Source of the DNA: Candidatus Eiseniibacteriota bacterium
Lineage (GTDB): Bacteria; Patescibacteriota; Microgenomatia; Levybacterales; UBA12049
Direction: 5' to 3'
DNA length: 64,000 nucleotides
Assembly (NCBI GenBank): GCA_035631115.1
Contig: DASQJJ010000006.1
Coordinates: 11,551 to 75,550 of the forward strand
The notes beneath the pieces are model-generated. The model was not told where the DNA came from and made no database searches. It saw only the letters and a program-made list of their open reading frames with translations. Of the stretch, positions 47,129 to 63,307 are shown piece by piece (position 1 is the stretch's first letter; each line of letters begins with the position of its first letter). Position numbers and translations under genes: made by a program.

Positions 47129-48093
47129 AGGTTTTCTTTGCTATAAAACTCCCACGCAGTCTTAACAATTGTCTCCAAATCTGAATGTTGGGGATTCCAT
47201 CCCATTACTTCTTTTGCCTTACTATTATCTGCAAGAAGCACTGCAGGATCCCCTGGTCTTCTGTGCTCTTGTATCATGTCTATATTGAGACCGGTTATTT
47301 TTTTTACCATTTCTACTACCTCTTTGTTGGAATATCCTTTATTCGTACCGAGATTAAATGCATTTGATGCATTAGATTTCTCAAGGTACTCAATTGCCAG
47401 GATATGAGCAGTTGCTAAATCTTCTACATGGATATAATCTCGTACACACGTCCCATCTTTTGTTGGATAGTCTGTGCCAAAGAGAGAAAATGGCTTTCCT
47501 TCCTGTGCTTTTTTTATTGCAACAGGAATAATATGCGTCTCTGGCATATGATTTTCCCCAATACTACCATCCAGGGATGCTCCTGCTGCATTGAAATAGC
47601 GAAGAGCAATGAATTTTATGTCTAATATTCTGTCGTACCATTCTAAGATTGTCTCAAACATTAACTTTGACTCTCCATACACATTTACAGGATTTTTTTT
47701 GTCGTCTTCTTTAATAGGCGTACTCTCTGGCATTCCAAAAATTGCAGCTGTGGAGGAGAAAACAATGTGTTTGATATTTCTTTTCTTCATATATTCAAGG
47801 AGATTAAGTCCGCCTTGCAAGTTGTTTTGGAAGTACTTGGCAGGGTCTTTCATGGACTCTGCCACGCTTAGGTGAGCTGCAAAATGAATAACACCATCAA
47901 AATCGTACGAATCCAGCTGAGACAAATCCTCAGGATGCAAGAGATCTCCTACAATTAGAGGACAGGAAACGACTTCTTTATGTCCTTGGATAAGATTGTC
48001 AAAAACAACTACCTCCATCCCCTTTTCAAGAAGTCTTTTTACCGTAACGCTTCCTATATATCCTGCACCGCCTGTTACTAGTATCTTTTTCAT
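47125..48093 (-). CDS. galE: UDP-glucose 4-epimerase
   Basis: MKKILVTGGAGYIGSVTVKRLLEKGMEVVVFDNL...YGESKLMFETIL (YxxxK) and C-terminal GalE-like region DYPTKDGTCVRDYIHVEDLA. Confidence 0.8.
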   Translation of the reverse strand: MKKILVTGGAGYIGSVTVKRLLEKGMEVVVFDNLIQGHKEVVSCPLIVGDLLHPEDLSQLDSYDFDGVIHFAAHLSVAESMKDPAKYFQNNLQGGLNLLEYMKKRNIKHIVFSSTAAIFGMPESTPIKEDDKKNPVNVYGESKLMFETILEWYDRILDIKFIALRYFNAAGASLDGSIGENHMPETHIIPVAIKKAQEGKPFSLFGTDYPTKDGTCVRDYIHVEDLATAHILAIEYLEKSNASNAFNLGTNKGYSNKEVVEMVKKITGLNIDMIQEHRRPGDPAVLLADNSKAKEVMGWNPQHSDLETIVKTAWEFYSKENL

Positions 48094-48851
48094 GATTTTT
48101 TTAGGTATTTTTTATAACTAACAGCAAATCGAATAGACGAAAAGAAGGAAAAAATAACTCCCTGCCATCCATCAAGTATTGCTTTGTGTCGTATTGTTGT
48201 CCAGAAAAACCAAAAAATAGGTTTTCCTACCATATATTCTAGCATAGTAACAGGATCTTTGGATAAATTTTTGTCCTTGTACTGATTTGCGATAAAATCA
48301 GTATATCGATTAAATCGAAGCAAATACCTTTTAAATGACGGGTCTGCAATATGAATAAGTGGCTCGCGCAGATATCCTGTTTTGCCATTAACAACAGCTT
48401 GCTCATGCACGTCCTTTTGCGGCAGTTTTCCCAACCCATTCTTATACAGGCGTAGCGTGTAATCTGGATACACTCCACCTTTCATAAGAAATCTTCCCAA
48501 AAACCAATTCTTTCGAGGAATCCAATACCCTACCATGTCTGAATTCTCAATTTTTTCTCCAATTTCTTTTGCAAGCTGAGGTGTTACGCGTTCGTCTGCA
48601 TCAAGTTGCAAAATCCAATCTTTTGTTGCCATATCTATTGCCTTTTGCTTATTAACATGAAACATTGGATTATTCTCGGTAATTGTTACTTTTGCCCCGA
48701 ATTTTTTTGCAATTTCAACGGTATTATCCGTAGATGATCCGTCAACGATAATTATTTCGTCTGCAAAATTTTGTACTGATTCAAGACAATCAGACAAATT
48801 CTTTTCTTCGTTAAATGTGGCAAGTACTACAGAGACTGTTTGTTTTTTCAT
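48090..48851 (-). CDS. GT2 glycosyltransferase (WaaE/KdtX-like)
   Basis: MKKQTVSVVLATFNEEKNLSDCLESV...DEIIIVDGSSTDNTVEIAKKFGAKV...WILQLDADERV...GVYPDYTLRLYKN...VHE; the ORF-track start at 49064 overlaps the upstream gene, and Met72 (ATG 48851..48849) follows that gene's stop directly. Confidence 0.7.
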   Translation of the reverse strand: MKKQTVSVVLATFNEEKNLSDCLESVQNFADEIIIVDGSSTDNTVEIAKKFGAKVTITENNPMFHVNKQKAIDMATKDWILQLDADERVTPQLAKEIGEKIENSDMVGYWIPRKNWFLGRFLMKGGVYPDYTLRLYKNGLGKLPQKDVHEQAVVNGKTGYLREPLIHIADPSFKRYLLRFNRYTDFIANQYKDKNLSKDPVTMLEYMVGKPIFWFFWTTIRHKAILDGWQGVIFSFFSSIRFAVSYKKYLKKS

Positions 48852-48853
48852 AT

Positions 48854-50494
48854 TTACTTGGAAAATCTTTTTAATAGAAACAAAAACAATAATCCACCAA
48901 TACCAATAAGAGAAAGAATATCTCCAAACAACCGAAATTTGGACTCCTGATAAGCTACAGATACCGTGTGTGTCCCATCTGGAACAAGAAATGTCATTAG
49001 TCCTCGATACATTGGGTCCTGAAACTCTACGCCAACTTGTTTTCCATCCACTGTTACCCTCCACCCAGGAAAATACAATGTATTTTCTAAAAGTCTACTT
49101 TCTCCCTGAGAGGAAACAATGTAGGAATGCATTGTGACAAAACGTTTCTCTTGTGTGACGAGTGCATTCCCTGATATTGGCTCTAAGGGCTTGTCAAATC
49201 TTCCTAGCATAAATCGCACAGACCATACTGGAGCACTTTCTCCTGTATCTGTTGTGCTATTGTATATACCTGTAAAAAATGATTCAGGCTTTTCTGCATA
49301 AGATTTTGCATGAAAATACTCTCTACTTAAGAAGAGCAGAATACAACAGAGAGATACTACAACAACATATTTTTTTACTCCGGATATTTGTGCTACACAA
49401 AATCCTCCAAGAAGAGAAATAGTAACAACTGGAACCGCCAAAAATCTCCATGGAAATTGAAAGTTTTGCAGGAGCATTACTTTTTGCCAAATAAATTGAG
49501 CATATGGAAGCATAAGAAAAATTGCTGCAGCAGTATATAGAATAAGCCCTCCGAGAAAAACTCTTTTTACTTTTTCTTTTTTCCAAAACCTGAGTAGCAA
49601 TACTATACTTGCAACAAGTACAATCCAGTACACAATGCCAAGTTGCATGCTTGGCGTACCATAGCTCCATTTCCCATAGAAAAGCTGCGAAAAATCAACA
49701 AATCTACTTGCGTATTCTCCTTTTGTTACAATATTCCGAAGTGTATATTGACCTTCTAGAAGAGCCGGAACCCAGAAGAAACTGCTCAAAAGAAATCCAA
49801 AAAAAATACTACCAAATAACCATATCATTGTTTTTCTTTTCCACGTATCAAGCCAGATGAGATAAAGCATATATATAATTAGTAAGGGCGTTACCATAAG
49901 GGCAATTGCATTATGAGACAAAATAAGTAGCGCTACGGAAATCGATGCAAAGATGAATCTAGATAGCGTCTTCTTTTCAAAAACAAGATACATTCCCAGT
50001 AGAGCAAGTGGAATAAAGACAAAAGCAACATGCTCACCAATATCTCCGCGTACGTATAAATCAACAAAACGATAGGGTGCGTACATATATAATATTCCCG
50101 AAACAATACCAGATGTGTATCCCCATTGTTTTTGGGCAAACAGATACATTCCTACGCCAGATGCAATCATTGCGATTGCAAAGACAAGCTTTGTGCTTTC
50201 CACAAATGAAAACCCAAAGAAATGGAGGAGGGACGCAACATATGAAGGGAATGGATACAAGAATTCAAGAATGGGATGCCCATATCCCCAATTTAAATTT
50301 TCTGCCCATCTGGGGATAAGTATTCCTTCAGATAAATTCTGATAAAAATTTGCTATTCTGGCAATGTGATCCTGCCCATCATGGGTAACAGCAAATCCTG
50401 GATGCAATAAGTCCACAATAGCAAGTAGTCCAAAAAGCAAAACTATTAGTACAGATATTCTTGAAATCATATGTATTACTCCCTTATTGTCCAT
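48854..50494 (-). CDS. YfhO-like polytopic membrane glycosyltransferase candidate
   Basis: 546 aa; N-terminal DGQDHIARIANFYQNLSEGILIPRWAENLNWGYGHPILEFLYPFPSY; C-terminal LYFPGWRVTVDGKQVGVEFQDPMYRGLMTFLVPDGTHTVSVAYQ then TM anchor. Confidence 0.55.
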   Translation of the reverse strand: MDNKGVIHMISRISVLIVLLFGLLAIVDLLHPGFAVTHDGQDHIARIANFYQNLSEGILIPRWAENLNWGYGHPILEFLYPFPSYVASLLHFFGFSFVESTKLVFAIAMIASGVGMYLFAQKQWGYTSGIVSGILYMYAPYRFVDLYVRGDIGEHVAFVFIPLALLGMYLVFEKKTLSRFIFASISVALLILSHNAIALMVTPLLIIYMLYLIWLDTWKRKTMIWLFGSIFFGFLLSSFFWVPALLEGQYTLRNIVTKGEYASRFVDFSQLFYGKWSYGTPSMQLGIVYWIVLVASIVLLLRFWKKEKVKRVFLGGLILYTAAAIFLMLPYAQFIWQKVMLLQNFQFPWRFLAVPVVTISLLGGFCVAQISGVKKYVVVVSLCCILLFLSREYFHAKSYAEKPESFFTGIYNSTTDTGESAPVWSVRFMLGRFDKPLEPISGNALVTQEKRFVTMHSYIVSSQGESRLLENTLYFPGWRVTVDGKQVGVEFQDPMYRGLMTFLVPDGTHTVSVAYQESKFRLFGDILSLIGIGGLLFLFLLKRFSK

Positions 50495-52119
50495 GCATAC
50501 AGTGATGGTTGTCCATCAAGACTATAAAAGACTTCCTTAATTATAGTATTTTTCCTTTTTGTATTGGTAACATACAATGTGTCTTTTTTTGTTGGATTGG
50601 GACCAATCATATGAAAGTATATGGTATCAATAACATGCGTTTCTTGAAATCCACCTGATTTTGTACCACCATTTTTTATGTACCTTGCTGGATCATACAT
50701 ACTATTAAAGAGGTAGAGCATATATGACTGATATCCATTATTTCTATTTGTTATGTCTACATATTGGTATGCGTTTTTTTCTTTTACAACATACGTCATT
50801 GCCTTACTTAACGCATACTGAAATGACTCTGATTGTCTTATGGGGAATACTACAAAATAGTTTACGATGAATTGATATAACCCACTCAGTACGACAACTG
50901 AGAAAAGCAGTACAAAACCAAAATATACTGGCCTGCTATGTTTTTGTAAAAATGACAAACTCATATTAATACCTAATGCAGTAATAATTTGAGGCACAGG
51001 AAGAAGCGTGTATGCTCTCATTGCGTGCGGAGCTTGTGTCGTAAGACCAGGTGCCAAAAAGTCTATCCCTGTCCATGCAAGAAGAAGTACGGTAACTTTC
51101 TTATTAATGCTTTTCGAAAGAAAAAGCAGGAAGATTCCTATGAAAAGAAATGGCGCCTCCCATACGTAAAGAAGTCCAGTATTAGGCGCTTTAAACTGCT
51201 CATCTCCAGAATTACCAAAAAGCCAAGGAAGACTAAAGTGAGAAAGATAGTTTTGAATGAAAATTTCCCCAGTGATAACTCTTCTATTATTAAGTATTTC
51301 ACCTATGTAGTTATTATGTTGCTTTGCATATAAGATATCTTTTGCTGATTGTGCGTACCGTGGATTATCGGTAAAAACTGATGTTCCTTTTAGACGGATA
51401 AGTCCACCTGGAGACAATGAAACAACAACCATTGGAATACTAATAAGTATGAATAATGCAAATCCTACAAGTGCATGTTTTTTTACTTCCAGAATATTTT
51501 TCCAAAAAAGAATAATAAGCACAAAAAGAATGCATGGAGTGAATACCTTTTCACTTTGATATCCGTAAAAGGTTAACCCAAAAAAAAGAAAAGATCCCAT
51601 GAGAGTCCATGGATTTTTACTCCTTAAAAAAGAGGTGAAAAGAAGGAGTGCTACTACAACTAAGGTTAATCCCAAATTTACTTCGTGACCAAGTCTTGAT
51701 AGATATATATGCCATGGGGAAATTGCTAAAAGAAACATAGCAAGCAGTGCAATGTATTCCTTTTTTTTGTGAGTTACTAAAAGATTCTTAGTAAGAAAAT
51801 ATGTCATAATAACTGTTGCAATAGACATAATTACAGAAGGAAGTCTTACAGACAGAACCTGAAGACCAAATATTTTTACGAAAGGAATTACCGTGTACAC
51901 ATACAATGCAGGTCTATAATCATCATATGCACGAAGAAGTATGGGCAGGAAGTATCCATACTCATCTCTTCCAGTATGGAGAATTGAGTATGCATTCCAA
52001 CCAATAGTCGCTTCATCTAGAGATGCGCTCGGCGGAATTAATGACAGAAATGAAAATCGAAGAGCAATTGCCAAAAGTATAATAAAAACAAAAAGTATTT
52101 TTCTTACCATATTACTCAC
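50476..52119 (-). CDS. GT-C fold membrane glycosyltransferase (PMT_2/ArnT-like), tandem paralog 1 of 3
   Basis: 547 aa; SLDEATIGWNAYSILHTGRDEYGYFLPILLRAYDDYRPALYVY first-loop motif. Confidence 0.6.
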   Translation of the reverse strand: MSNMVRKILFVFIILLAIALRFSFLSLIPPSASLDEATIGWNAYSILHTGRDEYGYFLPILLRAYDDYRPALYVYTVIPFVKIFGLQVLSVRLPSVIMSIATVIMTYFLTKNLLVTHKKKEYIALLAMFLLAISPWHIYLSRLGHEVNLGLTLVVVALLLFTSFLRSKNPWTLMGSFLFFGLTFYGYQSEKVFTPCILFVLIILFWKNILEVKKHALVGFALFILISIPMVVVSLSPGGLIRLKGTSVFTDNPRYAQSAKDILYAKQHNNYIGEILNNRRVITGEIFIQNYLSHFSLPWLFGNSGDEQFKAPNTGLLYVWEAPFLFIGIFLLFLSKSINKKVTVLLLAWTGIDFLAPGLTTQAPHAMRAYTLLPVPQIITALGINMSLSFLQKHSRPVYFGFVLLFSVVVLSGLYQFIVNYFVVFPIRQSESFQYALSKAMTYVVKEKNAYQYVDITNRNNGYQSYMLYLFNSMYDPARYIKNGGTKSGGFQETHVIDTIYFHMIGPNPTKKDTLYVTNTKRKNTIIKEVFYSLDGQPSLYAWTIRE

Positions 52120-53788
52120 CTCTTACAATTTCTATAGCTCCCTCATTGTTAAGGTACTCTATCCTCTTAAGTGCTGTAGTACTCTCCGAAAAATCACTTG
52201 GTCTACCAACATAAAGAATATTTGAATCTTTCTTTTCGTCTTTCCAGTTGATTGGGCGGAATTCATATTTTCCGAAAGAGTGATTTTCTCGAAATCCGCC
52301 AGATGCAAAGCGTGTTTCTTTTTGATATAAGTTTGGGTCATAACGCAAGTAAAATAAGAAAAACATGTACGACTGATCTAGTGGTGGCTGATTGGAAACA
52401 ATAACGTGCTTAGCAGGTAATTTCGAAATAGTTGCTATTGCTTCCTGATACCCATACTGCCAATCTAGCGAATTATAGTAATTTTGTTGAACAAAATATT
52501 GGTCCAGGAAATATATAAAATTAAAAAGAAAAATGCAAAATGAAAAAAGAATGACTAAATATTTAATTTGTATTTTTGCTATGTGGTATGTACTTCTTAG
52601 TAACTTTTCAAAAACAGTAAAGACTCCAAATGCGATAAATATTTGGAAAGTGGGAAGAAAATTAAGAGTTCGTACCGCATGAGGAACTCCTGTTGTAACT
52701 GATGCAGGAAGTGGAGCAAGTAAAAACCACCCAAATATAAAAATCTTTGTGTTAAGGGAATATTTTGAAAAAAGAAAACAATATATACCAATAAGCAGAA
52801 ATGGTAATTCCCAAAGATACAACAATCCCATAAATGGTGCGTGGTGTCTACTCACATCCCCATTAAGAAAAAGCCACCGCAGGTCAAAATGCGTTAGGTA
52901 ATTTGCAATAATCTCCTTTCCATATATAACGCGCCTATTATCAATGAGTAGGCCTACATAATCATGATTCTCTTTGTCTTGTCTGACTCTCAGGCTTGTT
53001 TGTGTCGAATTGCTCGTATCGGAAAATACAGAAACACCTTTTGCACGGGCCAGCGCATTGGTATTAGTTGCTAAATAAAATCCTAATGGCATAACAAGAA
53101 TAAGTCCAACAAGAATAGAAGAGAAAAGATACTTTTTTGAAACCTTCTTTATATTGTTAAAAGAAATAAAAATAAGAAGGCAGACGAAAAGTGGAACAAA
53201 AACTTTTTCACTTTGATATACATATAACGACGCGACAAAAGCAATTACGGACAAAGGCAATAGGTAGTACTTCTGCATTCCTTTGAGAAAAAAATATGCT
53301 CCAATAATATTAAGAGATAAACCAACATTAGATTCAAATCCAATTCTTGAAAATTGTATATGCCAGGGTGAAAGCGCTAAGAGAAGCGCAATAAGGAAAG
53401 ATAATTTATTATTATGGAATAGGTCCCTGCATAAAAAATAAACAACAACCACAGTTGTTATACCAAAAAGAATTGACGGCATTCTCACCGCCTCTATACT
53501 GAGTCCAAAAATAAAAAGGGATGGAATAATAAGATAGCTATAGAGCGCGGGTTTGTAATCATCAAATGATCGAAGCACTATTGGCATAAATTGACCATAT
53601 TCGTCTCTTCCCGTGTGCAAAATAGAGTAAGCATTGTATCCCAGGGCTGCTTCATCCCAATCTGGCGAAGGAGGCACATGCCCAACCAGAAATAGACGCA
53701 GAGCAGAAGTTACAATAATTAAAAGTATTACGAGAAAATATGTTTTTGTTATTTGAAATTTGAAATTTGAAATTTGAAATTTTTTCAT
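52112..53788 (-). CDS. GT-C fold membrane glycosyltransferase (PMT_2/ArnT-like), tandem paralog 2 of 3; 5-prime heptamer repeat tract
   Basis: 558 aa; DWDEAALGYNAYSILHTGRDEYGQFMPIVLRSFDDYKPALYSY; N-terminal extension MKKFQISNFKFQITK encoded by (ATTTGAA)x4 at 53751..53778. Confidence 0.6.
   Translation of the reverse strand: MKKFQISNFKFQITKTYFLVILLIIVTSALRLFLVGHVPPSPDWDEAALGYNAYSILHTGRDEYGQFMPIVLRSFDDYKPALYSYLIIPSLFIFGLSIEAVRMPSILFGITTVVVVYFLCRDLFHNNKLSFLIALLLALSPWHIQFSRIGFESNVGLSLNIIGAYFFLKGMQKYYLLPLSVIAFVASLYVYQSEKVFVPLFVCLLIFISFNNIKKVSKKYLFSSILVGLILVMPLGFYLATNTNALARAKGVSVFSDTSNSTQTSLRVRQDKENHDYVGLLIDNRRVIYGKEIIANYLTHFDLRWLFLNGDVSRHHAPFMGLLYLWELPFLLIGIYCFLFSKYSLNTKIFIFGWFLLAPLPASVTTGVPHAVRTLNFLPTFQIFIAFGVFTVFEKLLRSTYHIAKIQIKYLVILFSFCIFLFNFIYFLDQYFVQQNYYNSLDWQYGYQEAIATISKLPAKHVIVSNQPPLDQSYMFFLFYLRYDPNLYQKETRFASGGFRENHSFGKYEFRPINWKDEKKDSNILYVGRPSDFSESTTALKRIEYLNNEGAIEIVRGE
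53751..53778. repeat. perfect heptanucleotide tract (ATTTGAA)x4 followed by ATTTTTT, inside codons 4-13 of CDS 52112..53788
   Basis: read directly: atttgaa atttgaa atttgaa atttgaa attttttcat(ATG on minus strand at 53788..53786). Confidence 0.9.
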
Positions 53789-55392
53789 AGTGTATATGCA
53801 ACCAGCGATGGTTGACCATTTTGTAAAAGAAATTTCTTAAGGACAATTGCATGCTCTGGTAATTCAGATGGGCTAACAATGTACAGCGTATTCTTCATTG
53901 CAACAATCTCTTTAGGAAAATTGTATTTCCCTACTTTCTCAACATTCACAAATCCAAATGCATCTCTTGTTATTGTACTTGTCGCTCTAAATGTAGTGGG
54001 ATTAATTTTTTCATAGAAAAGAGTATACATGTATGGTCTGCCAAGTGCAGAAGTAAAAACCACGTGTGCATACTCGTTGTCGTGTGTTTTTGCATAGAGT
54101 AGTGCATCTTTATATCCATCTTGCCATTCTCCAGAAAATTCTCTCGAATAATGAGCATAATATCCATGAAGGAAGTAAAAAACAGACAGGGTAAATAATC
54201 CTAAAAATACAGATAACACAATCTTTCTCTGTTTTTTAAAGAAAAAGGATATTTCGACAAGCCCAACTGCACTTAGTATTTGCCAAGTAGGCAAAGCTCC
54301 TTCTGTACGCAAGGCATGTGGCGTCTCCCTAGCAACACCTGCGGGAATAATTGCCAAGAGTAACCAAACAGGAACAATCCACCAGTAATCAATTCTTTTT
54401 CGAAAAAGAAATAAAATACTCACAATAAGTAGTGGTATATCAAGAAGATACAACTGCCCAACATCTCGTGTTGAAAATTTTGGATTTCCATCTCCTGAGA
54501 TAAAGAGAAATGAAGGGTTAAGATTGTCTAAATAGTGTTGTATGTATGCAATACTATAAATAAGCCTTCTATTGTGAATTACTTTTGACCACACTGCATT
54601 TTTATCATTGGCAATTTCCTGATTGGACTGTTTTACAAGTCCAACATCAGAAAAAATATTTACCTCGTTATATCGAAGCTTTGACTGGGGAGAAAGAAAA
54701 AAATGTATGGCAGGTATAAGGAGGATTACACCAATAAGGCTAGCAATACCAACGAGTTTTTTATAATGCAAGATTTGCTTCCAAAATGAAAAGGCAAGAA
54801 GCATTACTAAAAGTGGCGCAACAATACGGGCACTATTGAATGTATACATTGAGAGTATAAAAGATGTTAAAGAAAGAAAAAGAAAAATTGATTTTTTATC
54901 TTGTATCCAAGACACATAAAGCCAGACGCCTACTGCAATAAAAAATGTTGCTATATTTGCCTCAAAGGCGGCCCGAGAAAGCATAATATGCCAAGGAGAT
55001 ACAGCAAGAAATAAGCTTGCCGCAAGACCATACCACTCCTTCTTACTAGATGAAAAGAAAATACGTTTTGTAAGGAAATATGTTACCAATACCATGAGAG
55101 TCCCAAAAAAAGCAGAGGAAAAGCGTGTAGCAAATTCAGTTAATCCAAATACTTTTATTGGAAGTACTTCTAGATATGCATAGATTGGAGGCTTATAGTC
55201 ACCATATGATTCAAGATAATCTAAAGGAAGAAATCGTCCAAACTCATCTTTTCCATCAATTCCTAACGAATATGCATTGTACCCCCAAGCAACCTCGTCC
55301 CATGTGAGTGATGGCGGGAGAGTGCTAAGCTGCCAAAATCTTAAAAAACCCGCTAGAAGCACTATCCCAATAAGTAAGATTGTAGTCTTCAC
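53785..55392 (-). CDS. GT-C fold membrane glycosyltransferase (PMT_2/ArnT-like), tandem paralog 3 of 3
   Basis: 535 aa; LTWDEVAWGYNAYSLGIDGKDEFGRFLPLDYLESYGDYKPPIYAY. Confidence 0.6.
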   Translation of the reverse strand: MKTTILLIGIVLLAGFLRFWQLSTLPPSLTWDEVAWGYNAYSLGIDGKDEFGRFLPLDYLESYGDYKPPIYAYLEVLPIKVFGLTEFATRFSSAFFGTLMVLVTYFLTKRIFFSSSKKEWYGLAASLFLAVSPWHIMLSRAAFEANIATFFIAVGVWLYVSWIQDKKSIFLFLSLTSFILSMYTFNSARIVAPLLVMLLAFSFWKQILHYKKLVGIASLIGVILLIPAIHFFLSPQSKLRYNEVNIFSDVGLVKQSNQEIANDKNAVWSKVIHNRRLIYSIAYIQHYLDNLNPSFLFISGDGNPKFSTRDVGQLYLLDIPLLIVSILFLFRKRIDYWWIVPVWLLLAIIPAGVARETPHALRTEGALPTWQILSAVGLVEISFFFKKQRKIVLSVFLGLFTLSVFYFLHGYYAHYSREFSGEWQDGYKDALLYAKTHDNEYAHVVFTSALGRPYMYTLFYEKINPTTFRATSTITRDAFGFVNVEKVGKYNFPKEIVAMKNTLYIVSPSELPEHAIVLKKFLLQNGQPSLVAYTL

Positions 55393-55471
55393 TATCCTTT
55401 TATTATAGCGTAAGATATACTATTGGAAAGTGTTTCTTTTTAAGAAAAACTATATGCTCTGAGAGGAGTCC
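55393..55471. promoter_or_regulatory. divergent intergenic region between the GT-C triplet operon (minus) and the 55472..57406 GT-C gene (plus)
   Basis: 79-bp AT-rich gap between divergent starts with tatact/tatagc -10-like hexamers. Confidence 0.3.
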
Positions 55472-57406
55472 ATGAATTTATCTATATTACCGACAAATCG
55501 TTGGTTTTTGCTTGCAATTATTCTTATTTCTGCAGGTGTTTTTCGCCTCTTTTACATACAGTATATAGAATTCAAATCAGATGAGGCATTAAATATTCTT
55601 CTTGCTACCCGTCCGCTTTTTCACCACCCATTTGCACCTGCATCATTGGCCTCTAGCGCAGGTATTCTCAACTTTCCCCTTCTTAATTACCTTCTCTTTC
55701 CCATTGTTATTTTTTCAACCTATCCCCCAACAATTTCTTTTGTTATTGCAGTGATTAACGTTGCAGCAATTGGAGGCTATTTCTTACTTTTTTCAAAATA
55801 TCATGGGAAATTGATTGCATTCCTTGCGTCTACAATGATAGCCCTTTCTCCATGGGCAATTCTTTATTCAAGAAAAATTTGGGCTCAAGATTTTTTACTA
55901 CCAATGAGTTTTCCCTTCTTTTTTAGTGTGTACAAAATTTTAGAAGGAAAAAAGCGATATTGGCTATTATTTGGCATAAGCAGTCTTCTGTTGTTGCAAA
56001 TTCATCAGCTTGCTGTCCTACTACCTGCAAGTGTTTTTGTAACACTGCTTATAAAAAGAAAACGTCCATTTTGGAGAATCTTAATTCTTGGCATCCTTAT
56101 TGGAATTATTCCAGCAATTCCCTACTTTCTTTACCAAGTAACAACATATTGTGCGTCATGTCAAAATAGCGTTAGTTTTTTTGCGAGATTTTCATTTCAT
56201 GACCTTGCAATTTTTTTACGTCCTTTGCAGATTCTTTCCATAGGAAATTTTCATACCGAGCTAGGTAATGATTTTGCAATTTTTGCATCTGAGTATCATA
56301 TGCCATACCTTATTAGTAAAATTACCTATCTCGCTTATATTCTCATCCCTATTGGGGCTTTTCTTTTTTGGAAAAAAGAAAAGCTATATGGATTTTTTGC
56401 CAGTATCTGCATAAGCATGCTATTTCTTTACTACATACTTGGCATAGAGCCCCTTATGCATTACTACATTTTTTTCATTCCTTTTCTAGCGCTCTTTTTA
56501 GTGTATCCTCTTTATTACCTTCTAAAGAATTTTCGTCTTCGTATAGTAGGCATCCTTGTCTGCCTTGCTTTTTTTACCGGACTTATTCTATTTGATTACA
56601 GCTTTTTTTCACTTCTTTCCAGAAGAGGAGGACTATCCGGAGAATATGGATCTGGATTTATTTCTGGCGAGCGAGAAAGAGAAAATCAGGTTGTCCAATA
56701 TAAAAATCTGGGAAACTATAATGAGATTCTTATTGCCAGCTATACATCAGGTGGTTGGCTAAAAGGATATATGCCTGTTGGAAAAATGCTTTTTCCGCAT
56801 AATGAATTAGAAAAAAATAGCATTTCCTTGGAAAAAAGCTTTGAAAAAGATCCTCAAAATCCCCTTCTTGACCTACAAGTTACCGCACTGCTTACGAATA
56901 ATTTACCGCCAACCTGGCAGGATGTCCTCAATCTCAGGACAAAAGCAGATGCAAAACCTGTATATGTGAATATATATAAAAGTGTTTTGGATGAGTATTT
57001 GTCTTCGTATTACAAAGGTCTCTATGAATCTCCACAACTTTTACTTTTATACCCTAAGCATTGGATAAAAACAGTTTCTAATAACACCACATTATTAGCA
57101 AGTGAAGAAACAATACTATCTATAGAATCATCAAAGCAACCTCCTATCCAACCTATTCTAGAGGGTACAACACAAGAAATAAGCACAATTTCCATTAAAA
57201 ATGAGCATATGACAAAAATTGATTATAGGGACATCACTGGAGTATGGTATGAAACGTTTTACGGACCTATCGATATTGGAGGACGATATTTTGCTTTTTA
57301 CCTAAAACCAACATCTCTAAAAACAGCAAATGAGGAGTCTCGAATTGCAGGAGACAAAATTACACAGGAAATACTTATATCAGCTACAAACCTTTCCCAA
57401 CAGTAA
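55472..57406 (+). CDS. GT-C fold membrane glycosyltransferase (PMT_2/ArnT-like) with C-terminal soluble domain
   Basis: 644 aa; EFKSDEALNILLATRPLF...LSPWAILYSRKIWAQDFLLP; about 12 TM helices then ~260-aa non-membrane C-terminus. Confidence 0.55.
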   Translation: MNLSILPTNRWFLLAIILISAGVFRLFYIQYIEFKSDEALNILLATRPLFHHPFAPASLASSAGILNFPLLNYLLFPIVIFSTYPPTISFVIAVINVAAIGGYFLLFSKYHGKLIAFLASTMIALSPWAILYSRKIWAQDFLLPMSFPFFFSVYKILEGKKRYWLLFGISSLLLLQIHQLAVLLPASVFVTLLIKRKRPFWRILILGILIGIIPAIPYFLYQVTTYCASCQNSVSFFARFSFHDLAIFLRPLQILSIGNFHTELGNDFAIFASEYHMPYLISKITYLAYILIPIGAFLFWKKEKLYGFFASICISMLFLYYILGIEPLMHYYIFFIPFLALFLVYPLYYLLKNFRLRIVGILVCLAFFTGLILFDYSFFSLLSRRGGLSGEYGSGFISGERERENQVVQYKNLGNYNEILIASYTSGGWLKGYMPVGKMLFPHNELEKNSISLEKSFEKDPQNPLLDLQVTALLTNNLPPTWQDVLNLRTKADAKPVYVNIYKSVLDEYLSSYYKGLYESPQLLLLYPKHWIKTVSNNTTLLASEETILSIESSKQPPIQPILEGTTQEISTISIKNEHMTKIDYRDITGVWYETFYGPIDIGGRYFAFYLKPTSLKTANEESRIAGDKITQEILISATNLSQQ

Positions 57407-58658
57407 TTTTCTTTTCTTCATCTGGCCATAAATAGGCTGTGATAAATACAAGGGACAAATATCCAACATGACTATTGTTAAAATACCGAGCAAAATACCA
57501 AAAAACAAATAAGAAAAGACCATAACACACAATAAGCTTACTTACAGTGGGCTTCTTCCAAAAGTACCAACTGAGAAGAAGTAAAACAGGCAGTCCAATA
57601 CCCAATTGCCACAATTGGAATGGATAGTACATATGGACATCTTTAATAAATCCGAGCTGGTTAAGCACCATTCCAAATCCATACCCAGAGATAGGATAGC
57701 TATGCTCGACGTTTCCCGATAGATAATACACAGTGCTCGCGAGAAACGACTTTGAATCCCAAAGATAAAATGGAACAATGCATATTGCTGCAACCAGTAA
57801 AAAACTACTTATATTTTTGATAAATACCATACCCCTTTCCCACATAGTTTTCTTTTCCCTCAACGCATACTGAAAGATAAACAAAAAATATAACGGGACA
57901 AAAAGCCATGTTGACTGCTTTGTGGCAAAAGATAGAGCAATCGGAATTCCTGACCAAAATAATTTTTTCTTCTGGAGTAAGAAAAATCCTACAAAAAGAA
58001 AGGCGTAGGCGAATATGTCAGACCTTCCTTCTAGGGTATACCCCAACATGGCAGGATTAAAAGCAAGAAGTGTTATAAGAAGACGCTTATTTTCTCCTTC
58101 CTTTGGTACAAAATATGCTGTAACCAAAAGAATGCCAAAAAGTAACCAAAGCACTTCCCTGCTATCGAAATATCCCAATGTATGATTTGAAATAATGTAA
58201 AAAGGTAATGGAAATACCAGGTAAACTGGCTCCATAACAAAATGGTATAAAGCTGGATTTACTTCTGTATCCGAGTAATGCCATGCCTGCATTGGCGTAC
58301 CAAAATATGTTTCTTTATAAGGATTTTTGCCATGAATAAAATACCGTATTGCTGCCTCCTGCTGTAGGATTATGTCATGAACGCCATATACTGGAGCTGT
58401 CTGATGTCTTACCACCATACTTGAGTAAAATCCACTTCCCAAAACAACTACAACAACAAAAAAAAGAAGAGTTGTTTTGATAAAAGAATATGCCTTTTGC
58501 GAAATTGCTAAAAGGTCTGCAACAATATATCCAAGAAGCAGTAAGAAAATAATTCCGAAAAGTATGTATGGAGTATCTCCTGACGAAAGTCGATACTGCA
58601 TAACAAAAAATATTACCAAAGGGAAAAGAATAACAGAGGATAAGGCAATGCGATTCAT
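57384..58658 (-). CDS. polytopic membrane protein, DUF2029/GT87-like mannosyltransferase candidate
   Basis: 424 aa, more than 10 TM helices; LEGRSDIFAYAFLFVGFFLLQKKKLFWSGIPIALSFATKQSTWLFVPLYFL resembles GT87/DUF2029 central region. Confidence 0.4.
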   Translation of the reverse strand: MNRIALSSVILFPLVIFFVMQYRLSSGDTPYILFGIIFLLLLGYIVADLLAISQKAYSFIKTTLLFFVVVVVLGSGFYSSMVVRHQTAPVYGVHDIILQQEAAIRYFIHGKNPYKETYFGTPMQAWHYSDTEVNPALYHFVMEPVYLVFPLPFYIISNHTLGYFDSREVLWLLFGILLVTAYFVPKEGENKRLLITLLAFNPAMLGYTLEGRSDIFAYAFLFVGFFLLQKKKLFWSGIPIALSFATKQSTWLFVPLYFLFIFQYALREKKTMWERGMVFIKNISSFLLVAAICIVPFYLWDSKSFLASTVYYLSGNVEHSYPISGYGFGMVLNQLGFIKDVHMYYPFQLWQLGIGLPVLLLLSWYFWKKPTVSKLIVCYGLFLFVFWYFARYFNNSHVGYLSLVFITAYLWPDEEKKITVGKGL

Positions 58659-61123
58659 ATATTTTTACTTCTCTTAGTAATCGTAAAACCTATAAATAGG
58701 AAAAGCAAGCTACCAATCCCGCATAAAACAAATCCTAGCGCAACGGACTCAGGCTGATAGACAAAAACAACAGTATGTTTTCCCTTTGGTACAGCAACAC
58801 TTCGAAAGGTATAGTCTGTTCTTATGAGTATTGTTGGCTTATTATCTACCATTGCTTTCCACCCTGGATAGTCATTATCTGAAAGAAAAAGAAGTGTATC
58901 TTTATTTGTTGTTACGTCTACAACAACTTTTTCAGGTGAGTATGTTGTAATTTTTGCCTTTCCCTCGATTGGAATAGAAGAAGGAGAAATTTTTGGATTT
59001 CGTACAACAACAACCTGTTTTCTCATATTTGTACTATCACTAAAAAGATAGGAAAATGTTTTTTGAGGGTCAGAAGAAATAATATAATTATCAACTAAAA
59101 ACGCTCTTGGAAATGCTGTCGTATTTTCATAGAGGGAATATATTCCATCTGTCCACACTTTTTGAAATTGTTTTTGTGTATCAAGCGCTATAAATGCTTC
59201 GTCTTCATCTAGATTTCTTGCAGCTATATACTTTACTCCCAATAGATTAAGTGCTTTTGTTAGGTATATATTTCTTTGTATTTCTGAAAGTTTGCCAACT
59301 GTGACAAATTGTGCATCTGCGCGAATTACATTAGGTGTATATGTACCTTTATTTTTGGTTGCCTCAACAAATTCTCCATATCGTTTTATGTAAAATGAAT
59401 CGTACCCTTCTGGGGATTGAAGCGAATAATTTGTAGCAAAATTTCTATCTATATATCCTTGTCCTATACTCCAAAATCTATTTACCCCAATTCGCTTAGA
59501 CAGCTCTGAAATAACTGGAGTGGAAGGATATACAAACCGTCTTTCAGAAAAGTATATATACTTTGTTGCAAAAAGAAAAATACTTACAACAAGAAGAACT
59601 ATATAACCAATACTTTGTATCTTTTTTACACTGACATTTTTTATGAATACAAGGGCTGCAAGCAAAATTACCCCTATAACAAAAACTGTTGGAATAAATA
59701 AGTTGTGATACGTAATTATCGAAAACTCTCCTAGTGGATTTGCTTTTTTTTGAAAAATAACAAAAATCCATCCTGCAGTAAGGCTAAGTATAAGAATAAG
59801 AGAAGAAAAAAATAAAGAAATCTTTGCCTTATTTTCCCTAAACAAATCCCAGCCAAATCCTGCCAAAACGGCAAGAGAAAAAGATGAAAGAATAAATATT
59901 CTCGATGGGAGTATTGTTGAAATGATTGGCAGATGCAAATTGTATAAAAGAAATCTGCTTGTTGGTAAAGACATTCCCAGAGAAAGTGTTATTATCCATG
60001 CAAGAGTAAAAAAAAGACTCACTGGAGATTTTCTCCAGTGCAGTAGCGCAACAAGACCAAAGAAAAGACCGACAACTCCTACAAAAAGCACTTGTTCGTA
60101 ATAGAATCCTTTCCCAAAATAATTATATGTTGCAGGATTTCCAAGAAAGTCAGGAACAATATAGGTAATAAGATGCCAAGGGGCAATAAGGTACGTGTCA
60201 AAAAGGAATTTGGCATCCGTTGTCCCCCTTGCTGAATATTTAAATGATTCTAGGTTAGGGAGAATGTGAGGTGCACTAAGAAGAAACGATATTCCAAATC
60301 CTACAATTACCCATAAAAAGGTTTTTATCTTCTTTGTTTGAAACAGAAGAAAAACAGCCCAAAGAAATGACAAAAGCAGTGCGTAGAGACTACTCTGAAA
60401 CCACCCTGAGAGAATAGAAAGCGTACATCCTCCAACAATACAACCAAACCATATAATTCTTTTCTCCTGGAAAAATCTCTGAATACCCAAAAGAATAAGA
60501 GGTAAGAAAAGGATTGAATACACGGCCATGAAAGACTCTTCTGTTAAAACAAGTAATGTTCCAGAAAATCCAAAGGTTACCGCTCCAATAACTGATGCCA
60601 GTACTGACAATTTTAGTGACCTTAAAAAATAATACGTAAAAATACATGCAAGTAACGGTCCTACGATAACAACCAAAGACCATGCATCAATAAAAGGCAG
60701 AAGAAGAAAAAGTAAGGTAAGTGGAAAAAATACCGCAGATTGATACGTTGCCAAATGGGTATTACCAGCAAAGTCATAGGGATTCCACATAGGTAACTGG
60801 AGTTGCTTTAATGAATCTATAGTTAGGTGACGCAGGGGATAGAAAATGCGAAGACTATCAAAGCCTATTGGCTTATTCGCTGGACCATTTGGATATTCAG
60901 GTAGTGGATACGACTTCCATGGTTGGTAAAATGACACGAGTAAATTTCCTGCAAAAGGGACTTTCCCGGTGGTAAAATACGGATAAAAAACGACACATGT
61001 TACAAAAATAAATAAAAGTATTGGAAATAGGTATATATATTTCTTAAACATTTCTATATTCTTTCTTTCGCAAACCACTCCTGTGTTGCATGATACATTT
61101 CTTTTGAAGAGACTCCAAACCAT
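58655..61123 (-). CDS. YfhO-like polytopic membrane glycosyltransferase candidate
   Basis: 822 aa; C-terminal DNDYPGWKAMVDNKPTILIRTDYTFRSVAVPKGKHTVVFVYQP + TM anchor (close to the YfhO consensus); probable true start MFKKYIYLF (~61051), just after the upstream gene's stop. Confidence 0.6.
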   Translation of the reverse strand: MVWSLFKRNVSCNTGVVCERKNIEMFKKYIYLFPILLFIFVTCVVFYPYFTTGKVPFAGNLLVSFYQPWKSYPLPEYPNGPANKPIGFDSLRIFYPLRHLTIDSLKQLQLPMWNPYDFAGNTHLATYQSAVFFPLTLLFLLLPFIDAWSLVVIVGPLLACIFTYYFLRSLKLSVLASVIGAVTFGFSGTLLVLTEESFMAVYSILFLPLILLGIQRFFQEKRIIWFGCIVGGCTLSILSGWFQSSLYALLLSFLWAVFLLFQTKKIKTFLWVIVGFGISFLLSAPHILPNLESFKYSARGTTDAKFLFDTYLIAPWHLITYIVPDFLGNPATYNYFGKGFYYEQVLFVGVVGLFFGLVALLHWRKSPVSLFFTLAWIITLSLGMSLPTSRFLLYNLHLPIISTILPSRIFILSSFSLAVLAGFGWDLFRENKAKISLFFSSLILILSLTAGWIFVIFQKKANPLGEFSIITYHNLFIPTVFVIGVILLAALVFIKNVSVKKIQSIGYIVLLVVSIFLFATKYIYFSERRFVYPSTPVISELSKRIGVNRFWSIGQGYIDRNFATNYSLQSPEGYDSFYIKRYGEFVEATKNKGTYTPNVIRADAQFVTVGKLSEIQRNIYLTKALNLLGVKYIAARNLDEDEAFIALDTQKQFQKVWTDGIYSLYENTTAFPRAFLVDNYIISSDPQKTFSYLFSDSTNMRKQVVVVRNPKISPSSIPIEGKAKITTYSPEKVVVDVTTNKDTLLFLSDNDYPGWKAMVDNKPTILIRTDYTFRSVAVPKGKHTVVFVYQPESVALGFVLCGIGSLLFLFIGFTITKRSKNI

Positions 61124-62562: not shown

Positions 62563-63307
62563 GAAATCGGTAGTAAAACAAAGCTTTCAATGCCTTAACT
62601 CCATCACGAATTGTATGAAGCTTTTTTCCTTCATCATAAGACCTTGGAGTTGTTGTTATTGGTACTTCTTGAATTATTAGTCCGTTTTTGATTAATTTTG
62701 CAGTAAGCTCTGGCTCCAGCTCAAACCCTTTTGCATCTAAGTGTAACTTTTTACCTATTTCTGTTGGGAATAATTTATAGCATGTTTCCATATCGGTAAT
62801 CCATTGTCCATACAAAGCGCTTGTTAATAAGCTTAACATTCTATTACCAACATAATGCAATAAAAATCTTCCTGTCCGTTCTTCTTTTTCTAGATGGGGC
62901 AACCTTTTTAATCTTGTTCCATACACTACGGATGTATTTCCTTTTATTAAAGATGCTAGTATTGCAATTTGCGTTGGATTATATTCTAAGTCTGCATCTT
63001 GAATTATGGAGTAATCACCTGTTGCATGAGAAATTGCAGTAACAATAGCAGCGCCTTTCCCTTTATTGTTTTTATGCTGATAGAAGAAAATATTCTTCTT
63101 TTTCTGGGCGATTTTTTTTAGAATATCTGCTGTTTTATCGCTTGATCCATCGTCAACAATAATTATTTCTTTTTCCATATTTGGAATTGACACATCGGTT
63201 ACTCTTTCAATAACTTGCTGCACTGTCTTTTCCTCATTAAATACGGGAATAAGTATAGATAATTTCATCTTAAGAACTCCTCTTAATAACTTCCCTATCT
63301 GACTCAA
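62555..63307 (-). CDS. polyprenol-phosphate mannosyl/glycosyl-transferase (DPM1/Ppm1-like GT2, soluble)
   Basis: KLSILIPVFNEEKTVQQVIERV...KEIIIVDDGSSDKTADIL...QHKNNKGKGAAIVTAISHATGDYSIIQDADLEYNP. Confidence 0.7.
   Translation of the reverse strand: MSQIGKLLRGVLKMKLSILIPVFNEEKTVQQVIERVTDVSIPNMEKEIIIVDDGSSDKTADILKKIAQKKKNIFFYQHKNNKGKGAAIVTAISHATGDYSIIQDADLEYNPTQIAILASLIKGNTSVVYGTRLKRLPHLEKEERTGRFLLHYVGNRMLSLLTSALYGQWITDMETCYKLFPTEIGKKLHLDAKGFELEPELTAKLIKNGLIIQEVPITTTPRSYDEGKKLHTIRDGVKALKALFYYRFHE

What the first reader, a model, noticed from the sequence alone, without database searches (positions are those of the whole stretch)
50476..57406. Tandem triplication of PMT/ArnT-like GT-C genes plus a fourth, divergently oriented paralog
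Three consecutive minus-strand genes (547, 558, 535 aa) all carry the first-loop motif (L/W)DE(A/V)..GYNAYS(I/L)..GRDEYG.F.P...R..DDY(R/K)P(A/P)(L/I)Y and overlap each other by 4-8 bp. A fourth GT-C gene (55472..57406) reads the other way from a shared 79-bp intergenic region. Only the middle paralog has the heptamer-repeat N-terminal extension. This looks like recent paralog expansion with diversification of periplasmic loops, consistent with acceptor or donor specificity diversification.
Basis: seen in the sequence. Interest (0 to 1): 0.5.

Follow-up and report, generated by a model that had tools for sequence, protein, structure and literature searches.

The report
Ancient three-gene membrane glycosyltransferase array
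Three neighbouring genes for membrane sugar-transferring enzymes are real relatives of one another, but they are an old, conserved gene trio found across a whole group of ultra-small bacteria, not a recent duplication, so the finding is largely ordinary.

Summary
Three adjacent minus-strand genes, here called C (53785-55392), B (52112-53788) and A (50476-52119), are full-length homologs with a GT-C fold. A fourth, divergent gene D (55472-57406) is a much more distant GT-C enzyme.

The 'recent expansion' reading is refuted:
- The paralogs share only 32-40% amino-acid identity.
- Their synonymous sites are saturated.
- Each has positional orthologs at 41-71% identity in other Microgenomates (CPR/Patescibacteria).
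- In 82 related loci a tree gives three clean clades, never more than one member per locus per clade, always in the order C-B(-A).

All three keep the same conserved acidic and basic residues in the outside-facing loops. The long outside loop (aa 242-326) is the most clade-specific region.

Best reading: three co-transcribed glycosyltransferases that use polyprenyl-phosphate-sugar donors, have distinct specificities, and sit in a 64-kb surface-glycan gene cluster.

The 'heptamer extension' of B is a perfect DNA repeat, (AAATTTC)x4.6, directly after the ATG. It belongs to the known class of over-represented 7-nt simple sequence repeats. Here it looks like a stable, translated in-frame insertion. 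No evidence of phase switching was found.

The parts
53785..55392 (-). Paralog C (535 aa), first gene of the array; GT-C glycosyltransferase (Pfam PMT and PMT_2).
   Evidence: Orthologs at 62-71% identity sit in the same position in L002, L003 and L005. The C clade has 77 sequences from 77 loci and is the outgroup to A+B.
52112..53788 (-). Paralog B (558 aa), middle gene; GT-C glycosyltransferase. Its start ATG overlaps the stop of C (ATGA).
53751..53782 (-). Perfect heptanucleotide tandem repeat (AAATTTC)x4.6 in codons 2-12 of B. It encodes KFQISNFKFQI, a cytoplasmic N-terminal extension in front of TM1.
   Evidence: Equivalent perfect tracts lie directly after the ATG of B orthologs in L002 (AAATCTC), L007 (AAATTTC), and L043 and L085 (AATTTTC). 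All are in frame. There is no length change between 95%-identical alleles.
50476..52119 (-). Paralog A (547 aa from the GTG start; probably 544 aa from the ATG at 52110), third gene; GT-C glycosyltransferase, sister to B.
   Evidence: Orthologs at 56-59% identity are in L003 and L005. The A clade has 46 sequences from 46 loci. A is absent from the neighbourhood in 34 of 82 loci.
55393..55471 (.). 79-nt divergent intergenic spacer between C and D. A promoter-like TTTCCA-16-TATAAT lies on the minus strand (55429 to 55402), just upstream of the C start.
   Evidence: This is a consensus match only. Promoter-like sites are not enriched over shuffles in this region.
55472..57406 (+). Gene D (644 aa): a distant GT-C glycosyltransferase of a separate family, with a C-terminal beta-rich PsbP-like domain (about aa 515-640).
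   Evidence: hhalign against the C/B/A family gives 96.5% probability, E 1e-9. Homologs are named GT39/ArnT family and carry PF13231. AF2 pLDDT is 93.6, and Foldseek hits are to ALG12, OST, PglB, Pmt4, ArnT and PsbP. True orthologs, divergent and upstream of C, occur only in L002, L003, L005, L008, L014 and L073.
48854..50494 (-). Next gene of the same transcription unit: a further GT-C-type membrane protein (PTPS_related plus PMT_2), 546 aa. It is conserved downstream of A in relatives.
   Evidence: 60-67% identity orthologs in the same position.
48090..48851 (-). GT2 glycosyltransferase (253 aa), conserved downstream in the same cluster.
57384..62562 (-). Three more GT-C-like membrane genes on the other flank: GT87-like (57384-58658), YfhO family (58655-61123) and a weak PMT_2-like (61054-62562). 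They are syntenic in relatives.
62555..63307 (-). GT2 resembling polyprenyl/dolichyl-phosphate hexose synthases (AglJ, PpgS, DPhHxTase models, all below cut-off). Candidate maker of the lipid-linked sugar donor.
16656..17627 (-). ArnC/PgfS/GtrB-type GT2 with C-terminal TM helices. Second candidate polyprenyl-phosphate-sugar synthase in the window.
   Evidence: full-length match to the ArnC model, 170 bits; PgfS 126 bits; both below the equivalog cut-offs.

Best explanation
C, B and A are three anciently diverged but all catalytically intact GT-C membrane glycosyltransferases. They are transcribed as one unit, with C and B translationally coupled.

Inferred mechanism: cytoplasmic GT2 enzymes encoded in the same 64-kb cluster load a sugar onto polyprenyl phosphate. 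The lipid-linked sugar is flipped across the membrane. Each GT-C enzyme then transfers the sugar, on the outer face, to a cell-surface acceptor (a protein or a wall/surface glycopolymer). The conserved Asp-Glu at the start of the first outside loop acts as the catalytic or acceptor-activating centre.

The three enzymes differ mainly in the long outside loop EL4 and in the C-terminal outside domain. They most likely carry out different steps, or serve different acceptors, in one pathway.

The array arose by two duplications, C versus (A,B) and then A versus B, before the sampled Microgenomates lineages split. It has been kept in the order C-B(-A) ever since.

The heptanucleotide tract in B is a slippage-born, now stable, translated insertion in a permissive cytoplasmic N-terminus. 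It is not a regulatory switch.
For: Shown:
- Full-length homology, with Pfam PMT_2/PMT above threshold.
- 57 columns are conserved at 80% or more, with the same residue, in all three clades. They cluster in outside loops: D45, E46, D62, E63 and D77 in EL1; S140-P-W-H143, S147, R148, E152 and N154 in EL2; and P369-H-A371 with R373.
- Ancient origin: saturated synonymous sites, orthologs more similar than paralogs, and three one-per-locus clades with topology (A,B),C.
- The order C-B-A occurs in 43 loci and C-B in 34 of 82. The five loci without C have B near the edge of the locus: at a contig end in L007, L053, L054 and L068, and at the edge of the stored stretch in L025.
- 35 of 77 C/B junctions are ATGA overlaps.
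- Clade-specific conservation is concentrated in aa 242-326.
- Candidate polyprenyl-phosphate-sugar synthases, a phosphoglycosyl transferase, epimerases and a flippase-like gene are in the window. The flippase-like gene is 44803-46080, whose positional orthologs in L002/L003 carry Pfam Polysacc_synt.
- The repeat is stable. All five orthologous N-terminal tracts are in frame. P0004 and P0184 are 95% identical, have the same length, and differ by one point substitution inside the tract. (AAATTTC)n also occurs as an in-frame insertion in essential genes such as LeuRS, RecR, TsaD and MurD in metagenomes.

Inferred:
- Donor type, from established GT-C biochemistry.
- 11-TM, N-in/C-out topology, from the AF2 helices plus the positive-inside rule.
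Against: - No acceptor or sugar can be named. NCBIfam gives only weak sub-threshold hits (Agl23-like, LA_3751/2-like). No PDB chain matches by sequence.
- Tight C-B coupling and universal co-occurrence fit a heteromeric complex at least as well as independent enzymes.
- The topology is modelled, not measured. The hydrophobic stretch at aa 80-101 could be a TM helix rather than a juxtamembrane helix, which would change which side the loops face.
- The loci were retrieved through the family's own motifs, so they say nothing about genomes that lack the family.
Confidence: 0.7

Rival explanations
1. C and B (with or without A) are subunits of an obligate hetero-oligomeric GT-C complex, as in yeast Pmt1-Pmt2 or mycobacterial EmbA-EmbB, rather than independently acting enzymes.
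For: C and B co-occur in every locus where the sequence held extends far enough. They are always adjacent in the same order and on the same strand. 35 of 77 junctions are ATGA stop/start overlaps, and most others lie within a few nucleotides, which favours stoichiometric co-expression. Solved relatives of the same fold form such paralog dimers: Pmt1-Pmt2 and EmbA-EmbB appear among the fold hits.
Against: No direct test was possible, because no multimer prediction tool was available. All three keep complete catalytic motifs, so none looks like a purely structural partner. ArnT, an equally close fold match, is not known (from my own knowledge) to need a paralogous partner. Operon adjacency alone is common for sequential pathway enzymes.
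Confidence: 0.25
2. The 5' heptanucleotide repeat makes paralog B phase-variable (a contingency locus) by slipped-strand mispairing, as in E. coli K1 neuO. This would switch one surface-glycan modification on and off.
For: A perfect 7-nt repeat lies directly after the ATG of a surface-glycan gene, and a change of one unit would shift the frame. Perfect tracts with different units sit at the same site in divergent orthologs (AAATTTC, AAATCTC, AATTTTC), which implies repeat turnover or repeated birth by slippage. neuO is a precedent: an AAGACTC repeat in the 5' coding region (PMC13001214).
Against: There are only 4.6 copies, against 3-53 in neuO, where 20 is the most common and 66% of genomes are OFF. 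All 5 orthologous N-terminal tracts, and every tract found in C/B/A family genes, lie in intact ORFs of full length; if phase were random, 5 of 5 ON would have probability about 0.004. Alleles that are 95% identical keep the same length and differ by a point substitution in the tract. Three allelic pairs in metagenomes show no copy-number change. The same repeat sits in frame inside essential housekeeping genes.
Confidence: 0.07
3. The array is a recent, lineage-specific tandem triplication that is still diversifying.
For: Adjacent same-strand homologs with short overlaps.
Against: Amino-acid identity is 32-40%. Third-codon identity is at chance level. Positional orthologs of each copy occur across the class at higher identity. 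The tree shows three one-per-locus clades.
Confidence: 0.02
4. The genes are ArnT orthologs that modify a membrane lipid (lipid A-type aminoarabinose addition) for resistance to cationic antimicrobials.
Against: No NCBIfam ArnT model was hit at E <= 0.01. There is no PDB sequence match. STT3 and Pmt4 match the fold equally well. The ArnC-like hit is far below the equivalog cut-off (170 against 529 bits) and lies 33 kb away. No ArnA/B/D genes were found in the window. CPR bacteria are generally regarded as lacking lipid A (my own knowledge, not tested here).
Confidence: 0.04

Closest known systems
ArnT (CAZy GT83; Cupriavidus metallidurans 5EZM/5F15)
   Different: 10-11% identity and no sequence-level match. 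There is no arn operon context. Lipid A is unlikely to be the acceptor. Three conserved paralogs occur here instead of one gene.
Protein O-mannosyltransferases (GT39; Pmt1-Pmt2 6P25/6P2R, Pmt4 9E61)
   Different: No MIR domain was detected (no Pfam hit). Identity is 14%. The acceptor and sugar are unknown. NCBI's 'glycosyltransferase family 39' name for these proteins rests on the PMT_2 profile only.
Mycobacterial embC-embA-embB arabinosyltransferase operon
   Same: A tandem trio of old GT-C paralogs in one operon, acting on cell-envelope glycans with polyprenyl-phosphate sugar donors. EmbA-EmbB form a heterodimer. The Emb proteins are fold relatives.
Three-component extracytoplasmic glycosylation systems (GtrA/GtrB/GtrC; CsbB/GtcA/YfhO; PgfS/PgfM; see PMC11127046)
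   Same: A GT2 polyprenyl-phosphate-sugar synthase plus a flippase plus a GT-C transferase. ArnC/PgfS-like and AglJ/PpgS-like GT2 genes and YfhO-family genes are in the same window.
   Different: There are many GT-C genes per cluster here (at least 11 in 64 kb) and no assignable one-to-one triads. No GtrA/GtcA-type flippase was identified with the searches run.
neuO 5' heptanucleotide VNTR (E. coli K1 capsule O-acetyltransferase; PMC13001214)
   Same: A heptanucleotide tandem repeat inside the 5' coding region of a surface-glycan-modifying enzyme. It is translated into a 7-aa periodic peptide.
   Different: neuO has 3-53 copies, is polymorphic between genomes, and is OFF in about two thirds of them. 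Here there are 4.6 copies, always in frame, and unchanged between 95%-identical alleles.
Over-represented heptanucleotide simple sequence repeats of bacteria (the 2007 survey of long SSRs in prokaryotic genomes as summarised in PMC4692102 and PMC4679880, which I recall as Mrazek et al.; cyanobacterial tandem heptanucleotides; TAACTGA repeats of Beggiatoaceae)
   Same: Period 7 is specifically enriched, with few copies per array (2-6). Tracts often lie next to start codons.
   Different: The described cases are mostly intergenic. In these Microgenomates loci, 50 of 53 arrays lie inside ORFs (in frame in the intact C/B/A family genes), recurring at the same cytoplasmic positions of orthologs and paralogs.

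Membership tests
GT-C glycosyltransferase superfamily (GT-C_A fold: STT3/ArnT/PMT-like) | Multi-spanning membrane core with the conserved N-terminal GT-C module. Fold similarity to solved members. | tested here: met
GT-C glycosyltransferase superfamily (GT-C_A fold: STT3/ArnT/PMT-like) | Conserved acidic residue(s) at the start of the first extracytoplasmic loop. | tested here: met
   D45 and E46 (B numbering) are invariant in 34- and 45-sequence alignments and are conserved at 80% or more in all three clades. The D family has invariant D37 and nearly invariant E38. The outside location is inferred from topology.
GT-C glycosyltransferase superfamily (GT-C_A fold: STT3/ArnT/PMT-like) | Use of a polyprenyl-phosphate(-diphosphate)-linked sugar donor on the outer face of the membrane. 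| not testable with these tools
   Context only: ArnC/PgfS-like and AglJ/PpgS-like GT2 genes are in the window.
Pfam PMT_2 (PF13231) / PMT (PF02366) | Score above the curated gathering threshold. | tested here: met
   A 42.7, B 44.6 and C 30.6 bits against a cut-off of 26.1. C also scores 40.0 bits on PMT against a cut-off of 22.7. D has no hit itself, but many of its homologs carry PF13231.
Protein O-mannosyltransferase (CAZy GT39) in the functional sense | Transfer of mannose from polyprenyl-phosphate-mannose to Ser/Thr of secreted proteins. | not testable with these tools
   Only the DE motif and the fold are shared. No PDB sequence match and no equivalog-level NCBIfam hit.
ArnT (GT83) orthologs | Match to ArnT equivalog models and an arn operon context (ArnA, B, C, D, E/F). 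| tested here: not met
   No ArnT NCBIfam model was hit at E <= 0.01. Only one distant ArnC-like GT2 was found, far below cut-off. No ArnA/B/D were found in the window.
Recent tandem gene duplication | Paralogs more similar to each other than to orthologs elsewhere, with unsaturated synonymous sites. | tested here: not met
SSR-driven phase-variable (contingency) gene, neuO type | Tandem repeat, with a unit length not divisible by three, inside the 5' coding region. | tested here: met
   (AAATTTC)x4.6 at 53751-53782, codons 2-12.
SSR-driven phase-variable (contingency) gene, neuO type | Copy-number polymorphism between strains or populations, including out-of-frame (OFF) alleles. | tested here: not met
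   5 of 5 orthologous tracts are in frame. P0004 and P0184 have the same length. Every tract found in a family gene lies in an intact ORF. Three allelic pairs in metagenomes are unchanged. Read-level data were not available.

The most novel reading that the evidence does not exclude
The universally paired, translationally coupled C and B proteins (with A as an accessory third member) form a hetero-oligomeric GT-C complex. This would be a bacterial counterpart of Pmt1-Pmt2 or EmbA-EmbB, and a class-wide core machine for surface glycosylation in Microgenomates, organisms whose envelope biochemistry is essentially unknown. A weaker add-on: the heptanucleotide tracts that recur at the same cytoplasmic positions of these enzymes are evolutionarily active slippage sites that occasionally switch or remodel them.
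Probability: 0.22. Interest if true: 0.55.

Novelty: new member of a known kind. Interest (0 to 1): 0.3.

Why it matters
The practical value is a corrected annotation. What looks like a fresh triplication is a conserved C-B(-A) module that can serve as a synteny marker and as three defined orthogroups for Microgenomates.

It singles out a small set of conserved surface-glycosylation enzymes in a lineage that cannot yet be cultured alone. That gives a concrete target for heterologous expression or multimer modelling.

The side observation may interest people who study repeat evolution and CPR protein insertions. Period-7 DNA repeats are written in frame into the cytoplasmic loops and N-termini of these and many other CPR proteins. 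This extends an already known repeat bias rather than revealing a new mechanism.

Tried and rejected
- Sequence search of the PDB with the family profile and with D found nothing, even at E 1-10.
- NCBIfam gave only sub-threshold hints (Agl23-like, LA_3751/2-like), so no functional name can be taken from it.
- The promoter/terminator scan gave fewer promoter-like sites than shuffles. The TTTCCA-16-TATAAT in the spacer is therefore only a consensus match.
- The exact B protein is encoded on one contig only, so the window's own strain could not be compared with others.
- I considered explaining the tight 4-5-copy size of the heptamer tracts purely by an in-frame filter (one ancestral unit plus three). 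I rejected this as the sole cause. In the metagenome sample, which includes non-coding cases, copy number runs continuously from 3 to 5, with only 4 of 124 tracts above 5.
- I considered a link to diversity-generating retroelements, because a bAvd-like gene sits in the syntenic cluster of L005/L006. I did not pursue it: nothing in the window resembles such an element, and the repeats are not adenine-specific variants.
- Literature searches for CPR/Microgenomates GT39 or GT-C arrays, and for SSRs in Patescibacteria, found nothing specific.


Full report
**What is there.** The window carries three consecutive minus-strand ORFs: 53785-55392 (C, 535 aa), 52112-53788 (B, 558 aa) and 50476-52119 (A, 547 aa). 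A plus-strand ORF, 55472-57406 (D, 644 aa), lies across a 79-nt spacer.

The C stop and the B start overlap as ATGA. The 8-nt B/A overlap depends on a GTG start. An in-frame ATG at 52110, preceded by GAGGTGAG, is the more likely start and leaves 1 nt between the genes.

A, B and C all exceed the Pfam gathering score for PMT_2; C also exceeds it for PMT. D has no Pfam hit. Pairwise BLASTP over the full length gives A/B 39% (E 2e-108), A/C 32% (9e-79) and B/C 33% (9e-80). The quoted first-loop motif is approximately right: A has GWNAYS, and C has GKDEFG and YGDYKP.

**Where it comes from.** The exact B protein is encoded on one ENA metagenome contig, k141_221736. It is also in NCBI as 'glycosyltransferase family 39 protein' under a 'Candidatus Eisenbacteria' label. 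Among the listed relatives that carry a source name, nearly all are Patescibacteria/Microgenomates: Levy-, Roizman-, Gottesman- and Woesebacteria. The Eisenbacteria label is therefore probably a binning error.

The whole 64-kb window is glycan-biosynthesis DNA. It holds a phosphoglycosyl transferase, many GT2 and GT4 genes, epimerases/dehydratases, methyl-, sulfo- and acetyltransferases, and at least eleven GT-C-type membrane proteins.

**Age of the triplication.**
- In three close relatives (L002, L003, L005) the neighbourhood is syntenic: [YfhO or another GT-C]-[GT87-like, not seen in L003]-[D, opposite strand]-C-B-A-[PTPS_related GT-C]-GT2-epimerase-GT4-flippase-like gene-GT2. In L002, A is replaced by an epimerase plus a divergent A-like gene at 38% identity.
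- Each window paralog is 56-71% identical to its positional ortholog but only 32-40% identical to its neighbours.
- A scan of one genome per species returned 80 loci from Microgenomates. Adding the three distinct contigs found earlier and the window, and leaving out four duplicate records, gave 83 loci. The longer set, before duplicates were removed, held 2-5 tandem members per locus in all but two cases.
- A neighbour-joining tree of 246 members gives three clades: A (46 sequences from 46 loci), B (82 from 82) and C (77 from 77). No locus has two members in one clade. A and B are sisters.
- Gene order is C-B-A in 43 loci and C-B in 34. The five loci without C have B near the edge of the locus: at a contig end in L007, L053, L054 and L068, and at the edge of the stored stretch in L025.
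- Within the window, third-codon identity at identical four-fold codons is 0.26-0.37, which is the value expected from base composition alone.

The duplications therefore pre-date the radiation of the sampled Microgenomates. 'Recent expansion' is refuted.

**What the proteins are.**
- No PDB chain matches by sequence, and identity to the fold matches is 10-15%.
- The helices and the positive-inside rule fit an 11-TM, N-in/C-out topology (inferred).
- On that topology the 57 columns conserved in all three clades cluster in outside loops: D45-E46, D62-E63 and D77 in EL1; SPWH, SR, E152 and N154 in EL2; and PHA plus R373. All three paralogs therefore look catalytically competent.
- The region with strong within-clade but weak between-clade conservation is the long outside loop, aa 242-326. 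It holds 6 of the 16 clade-specific conserved sites. The C-terminal outside domain comes next.

**The fourth gene.** D is not a member of the C/B/A family but is a GT-C enzyme.
- BLASTP to B gives 27% identity over 265 residues (E 8e-8).
- hhalign of the two family alignments gives 96.5% probability (E 1e-9) over the N-terminal 222 columns, with the DE motifs aligned.
- Many D homologs carry PF13231 and are named GT39/ArnT family.
- Its model (pLDDT 93.6) hits ALG12, OST/PglB/AglB, Pmt4 and ArnT. The C-terminal domain hits PsbP.
- True D orthologs in the divergent position occur only in a subset of loci: L002, L003, L005, L008, L014 and L073.

**Likely mechanism.** By analogy with solved GT-C enzymes and with three-component systems (PMC11127046), a cytoplasmic GT2 makes a polyprenyl-phosphate sugar. 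Candidates are 16656-17627, which matches the ArnC model over its full length at 170 bits and PgfS at 126 bits, and 62555-63307, which is AglJ/PpgS-like; all of these hits are below the equivalog cut-offs. The lipid-linked sugar is flipped, and C, B and A each transfer it to a surface acceptor. The acceptor and the sugar are unknown.

The universal C-B pairing and the frequent ATGA coupling (35 of 77 junctions) leave open a Pmt1-Pmt2/EmbA-EmbB-style heteromer. I could not test this.

**The 'heptamer extension'.** It is a perfect DNA repeat, (AAATTTC)x4.6, at 53751-53782, directly after the ATG of B.
- B orthologs in four other species have perfect x4 tracts at the same place but with other units: AAATCTC in L002, AAATTTC in L007, and AATTTTC in L043 and L085. 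Other orthologs have decayed versions or none.
- In 1.33 Mb of these loci, perfect repeats of 3 or more copies number 29 for period 7, against 0-1 for periods 5, 6 and 8-12.
- TRF finds 53 period-7 arrays of 2.9-5.7 copies, and 50 of them lie inside ORFs.
- In the C/B/A family they recur at the N-terminus, at the TM2-TM3 cytoplasmic loop (about aa 114-126), and at aa 370-424. That last site covers the cytoplasmic loop before TM11 and the start of TM11. The same unit is sometimes present in two paralogs of one genome (L023).
93 of them run through ORFs and always read KFQISNF. Some are inside LeuRS, RecR, TsaD and MurD.
- An excess of heptanucleotide SSRs in bacteria is already documented and has been attributed to polymerase slippage (PMC4692102 and PMC4679880).

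**Is the repeat a switch?** The closest functional precedent is neuO. Its 5' AAGACTC repeat (3-53 copies) phase-varies and is OFF in 66% of genomes (PMC13001214). Here the evidence points the other way:
- There are only 4.6 copies.
- All five orthologous tracts are in frame, as is every tract found in a family gene.
- Alleles that are 95% identical (P0004 and P0184) have the same length and differ by a point substitution inside the tract.
- Three allelic pairs in metagenomes are unchanged in copy number.

I read the tract as a slippage-born, translated and now stable insertion in a permissive cytoplasmic N-terminus. Phase variation gets about 7%.

**Verdict.** The genes are already annotated as GT39-family proteins. 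What is new is the recognition of a class-wide, ancient C-B(-A) module with three orthogroups, and of in-frame heptanucleotide tracts at conserved cytoplasmic sites. Novelty: new member of a known kind. Interest: 0.3.

Noticed in passing
window 16273-16303 and 18492-18522 (minus strand); also 52517-52551: Further period-7 DNA repeats (TTTCAAT-type, 4.4 copies, 83-91% matches) lie in frame. One is inside a GT4 fragment (NFQFSIFNFQ) and one inside a 686-aa YfhO-like membrane protein (FSTFNFKFSI). A decayed T-rich period-7 tract covers the start of TM11 of paralog B.
   Followed up: partly
L010, L014, L017, L023, L062, L065, L075, L083 and others: Heptanucleotide tracts recur at the same relative positions (about 0.21 and 0.70) of C/B/A orthologs with different units. 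In L023 the same unit (ACTTATC) sits at aa 119 of C and aa 116 of B, even though these paralogs are anciently diverged. This suggests either gene conversion limited to the tract or a genome-specific repeat-generating bias. Unexplained.
   Followed up: partly
Contig GC ranges from 0.22 to 0.67. The repeat occurs in frame inside housekeeping genes (LeuRS, RecR, TsaD, MurD, PrmC) and about ten times within the first eight codons of an ORF. Mixed arrays with related units (AAATCTC, AAATCCC, GATTTCA) are common.
   Followed up: partly
window 15911-16441 and 14783-15907: A 176-aa ORF that is only the N-terminal half of a GT4 enzyme lies directly upstream of a complete 374-aa GT4 gene. It looks like a truncated duplicate or a pseudogene remnant.
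   Followed up: no
whole window 1-64000: Apart from RecO at 96-656, almost every gene is glycan-related. The window holds at least eleven GT-C-type membrane proteins: 8745-10190, 17624-19684, 25724-28426, 41594-42913, 48854-50494, A, B, C, D, 57384-58658, 58655-61123 and 61054-62562. There is also a 1033-aa protein with a weak, sub-threshold Wzy_C match.
   Followed up: partly
NCBI record of the source contig; record titles: The window's proteins are deposited under 'Candidatus Eisenbacteria bacterium', although all relatives and the synteny are Microgenomates/Patescibacteria. Many related MAG records are titled 'uncultured Gammaproteobacteria'. Both are probably taxonomic mislabels.
   Followed up: no
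L005 16848-17210 and L006 15754-16116: A 120-aa gene with 23S_rRNA_IVP/bAvd domains (the accessory protein type of diversity-generating retroelements) is inserted in the syntenic glycan cluster of one relative. It is absent from the window.
   Followed up: no
window 55472-57406, aa about 515-640 of D: The C-terminal outside domain of D is predicted with high confidence as a beta-rich fold that matches photosystem II PsbP proteins (Foldseek target TM about 0.4-0.54). This is an unusual appendage for a GT-C enzyme.
   Followed up: no
window 25724-28426 and 28442-29554: A 900-aa YfhO-like membrane protein and the adjacent 370-aa ORF are paralogous (28-30% identity, E 1e-23 to 1e-25). This is another local duplication, or a split gene, within the cluster.
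   Followed up: no
window 48090-49064: The longest-ORF call (324 aa, GTG start) overlaps the upstream gene by about 210 nt. The conserved GT2 gene starts at the internal ATG (48851; 253 aa), as called on the source contig.
   Followed up: yes
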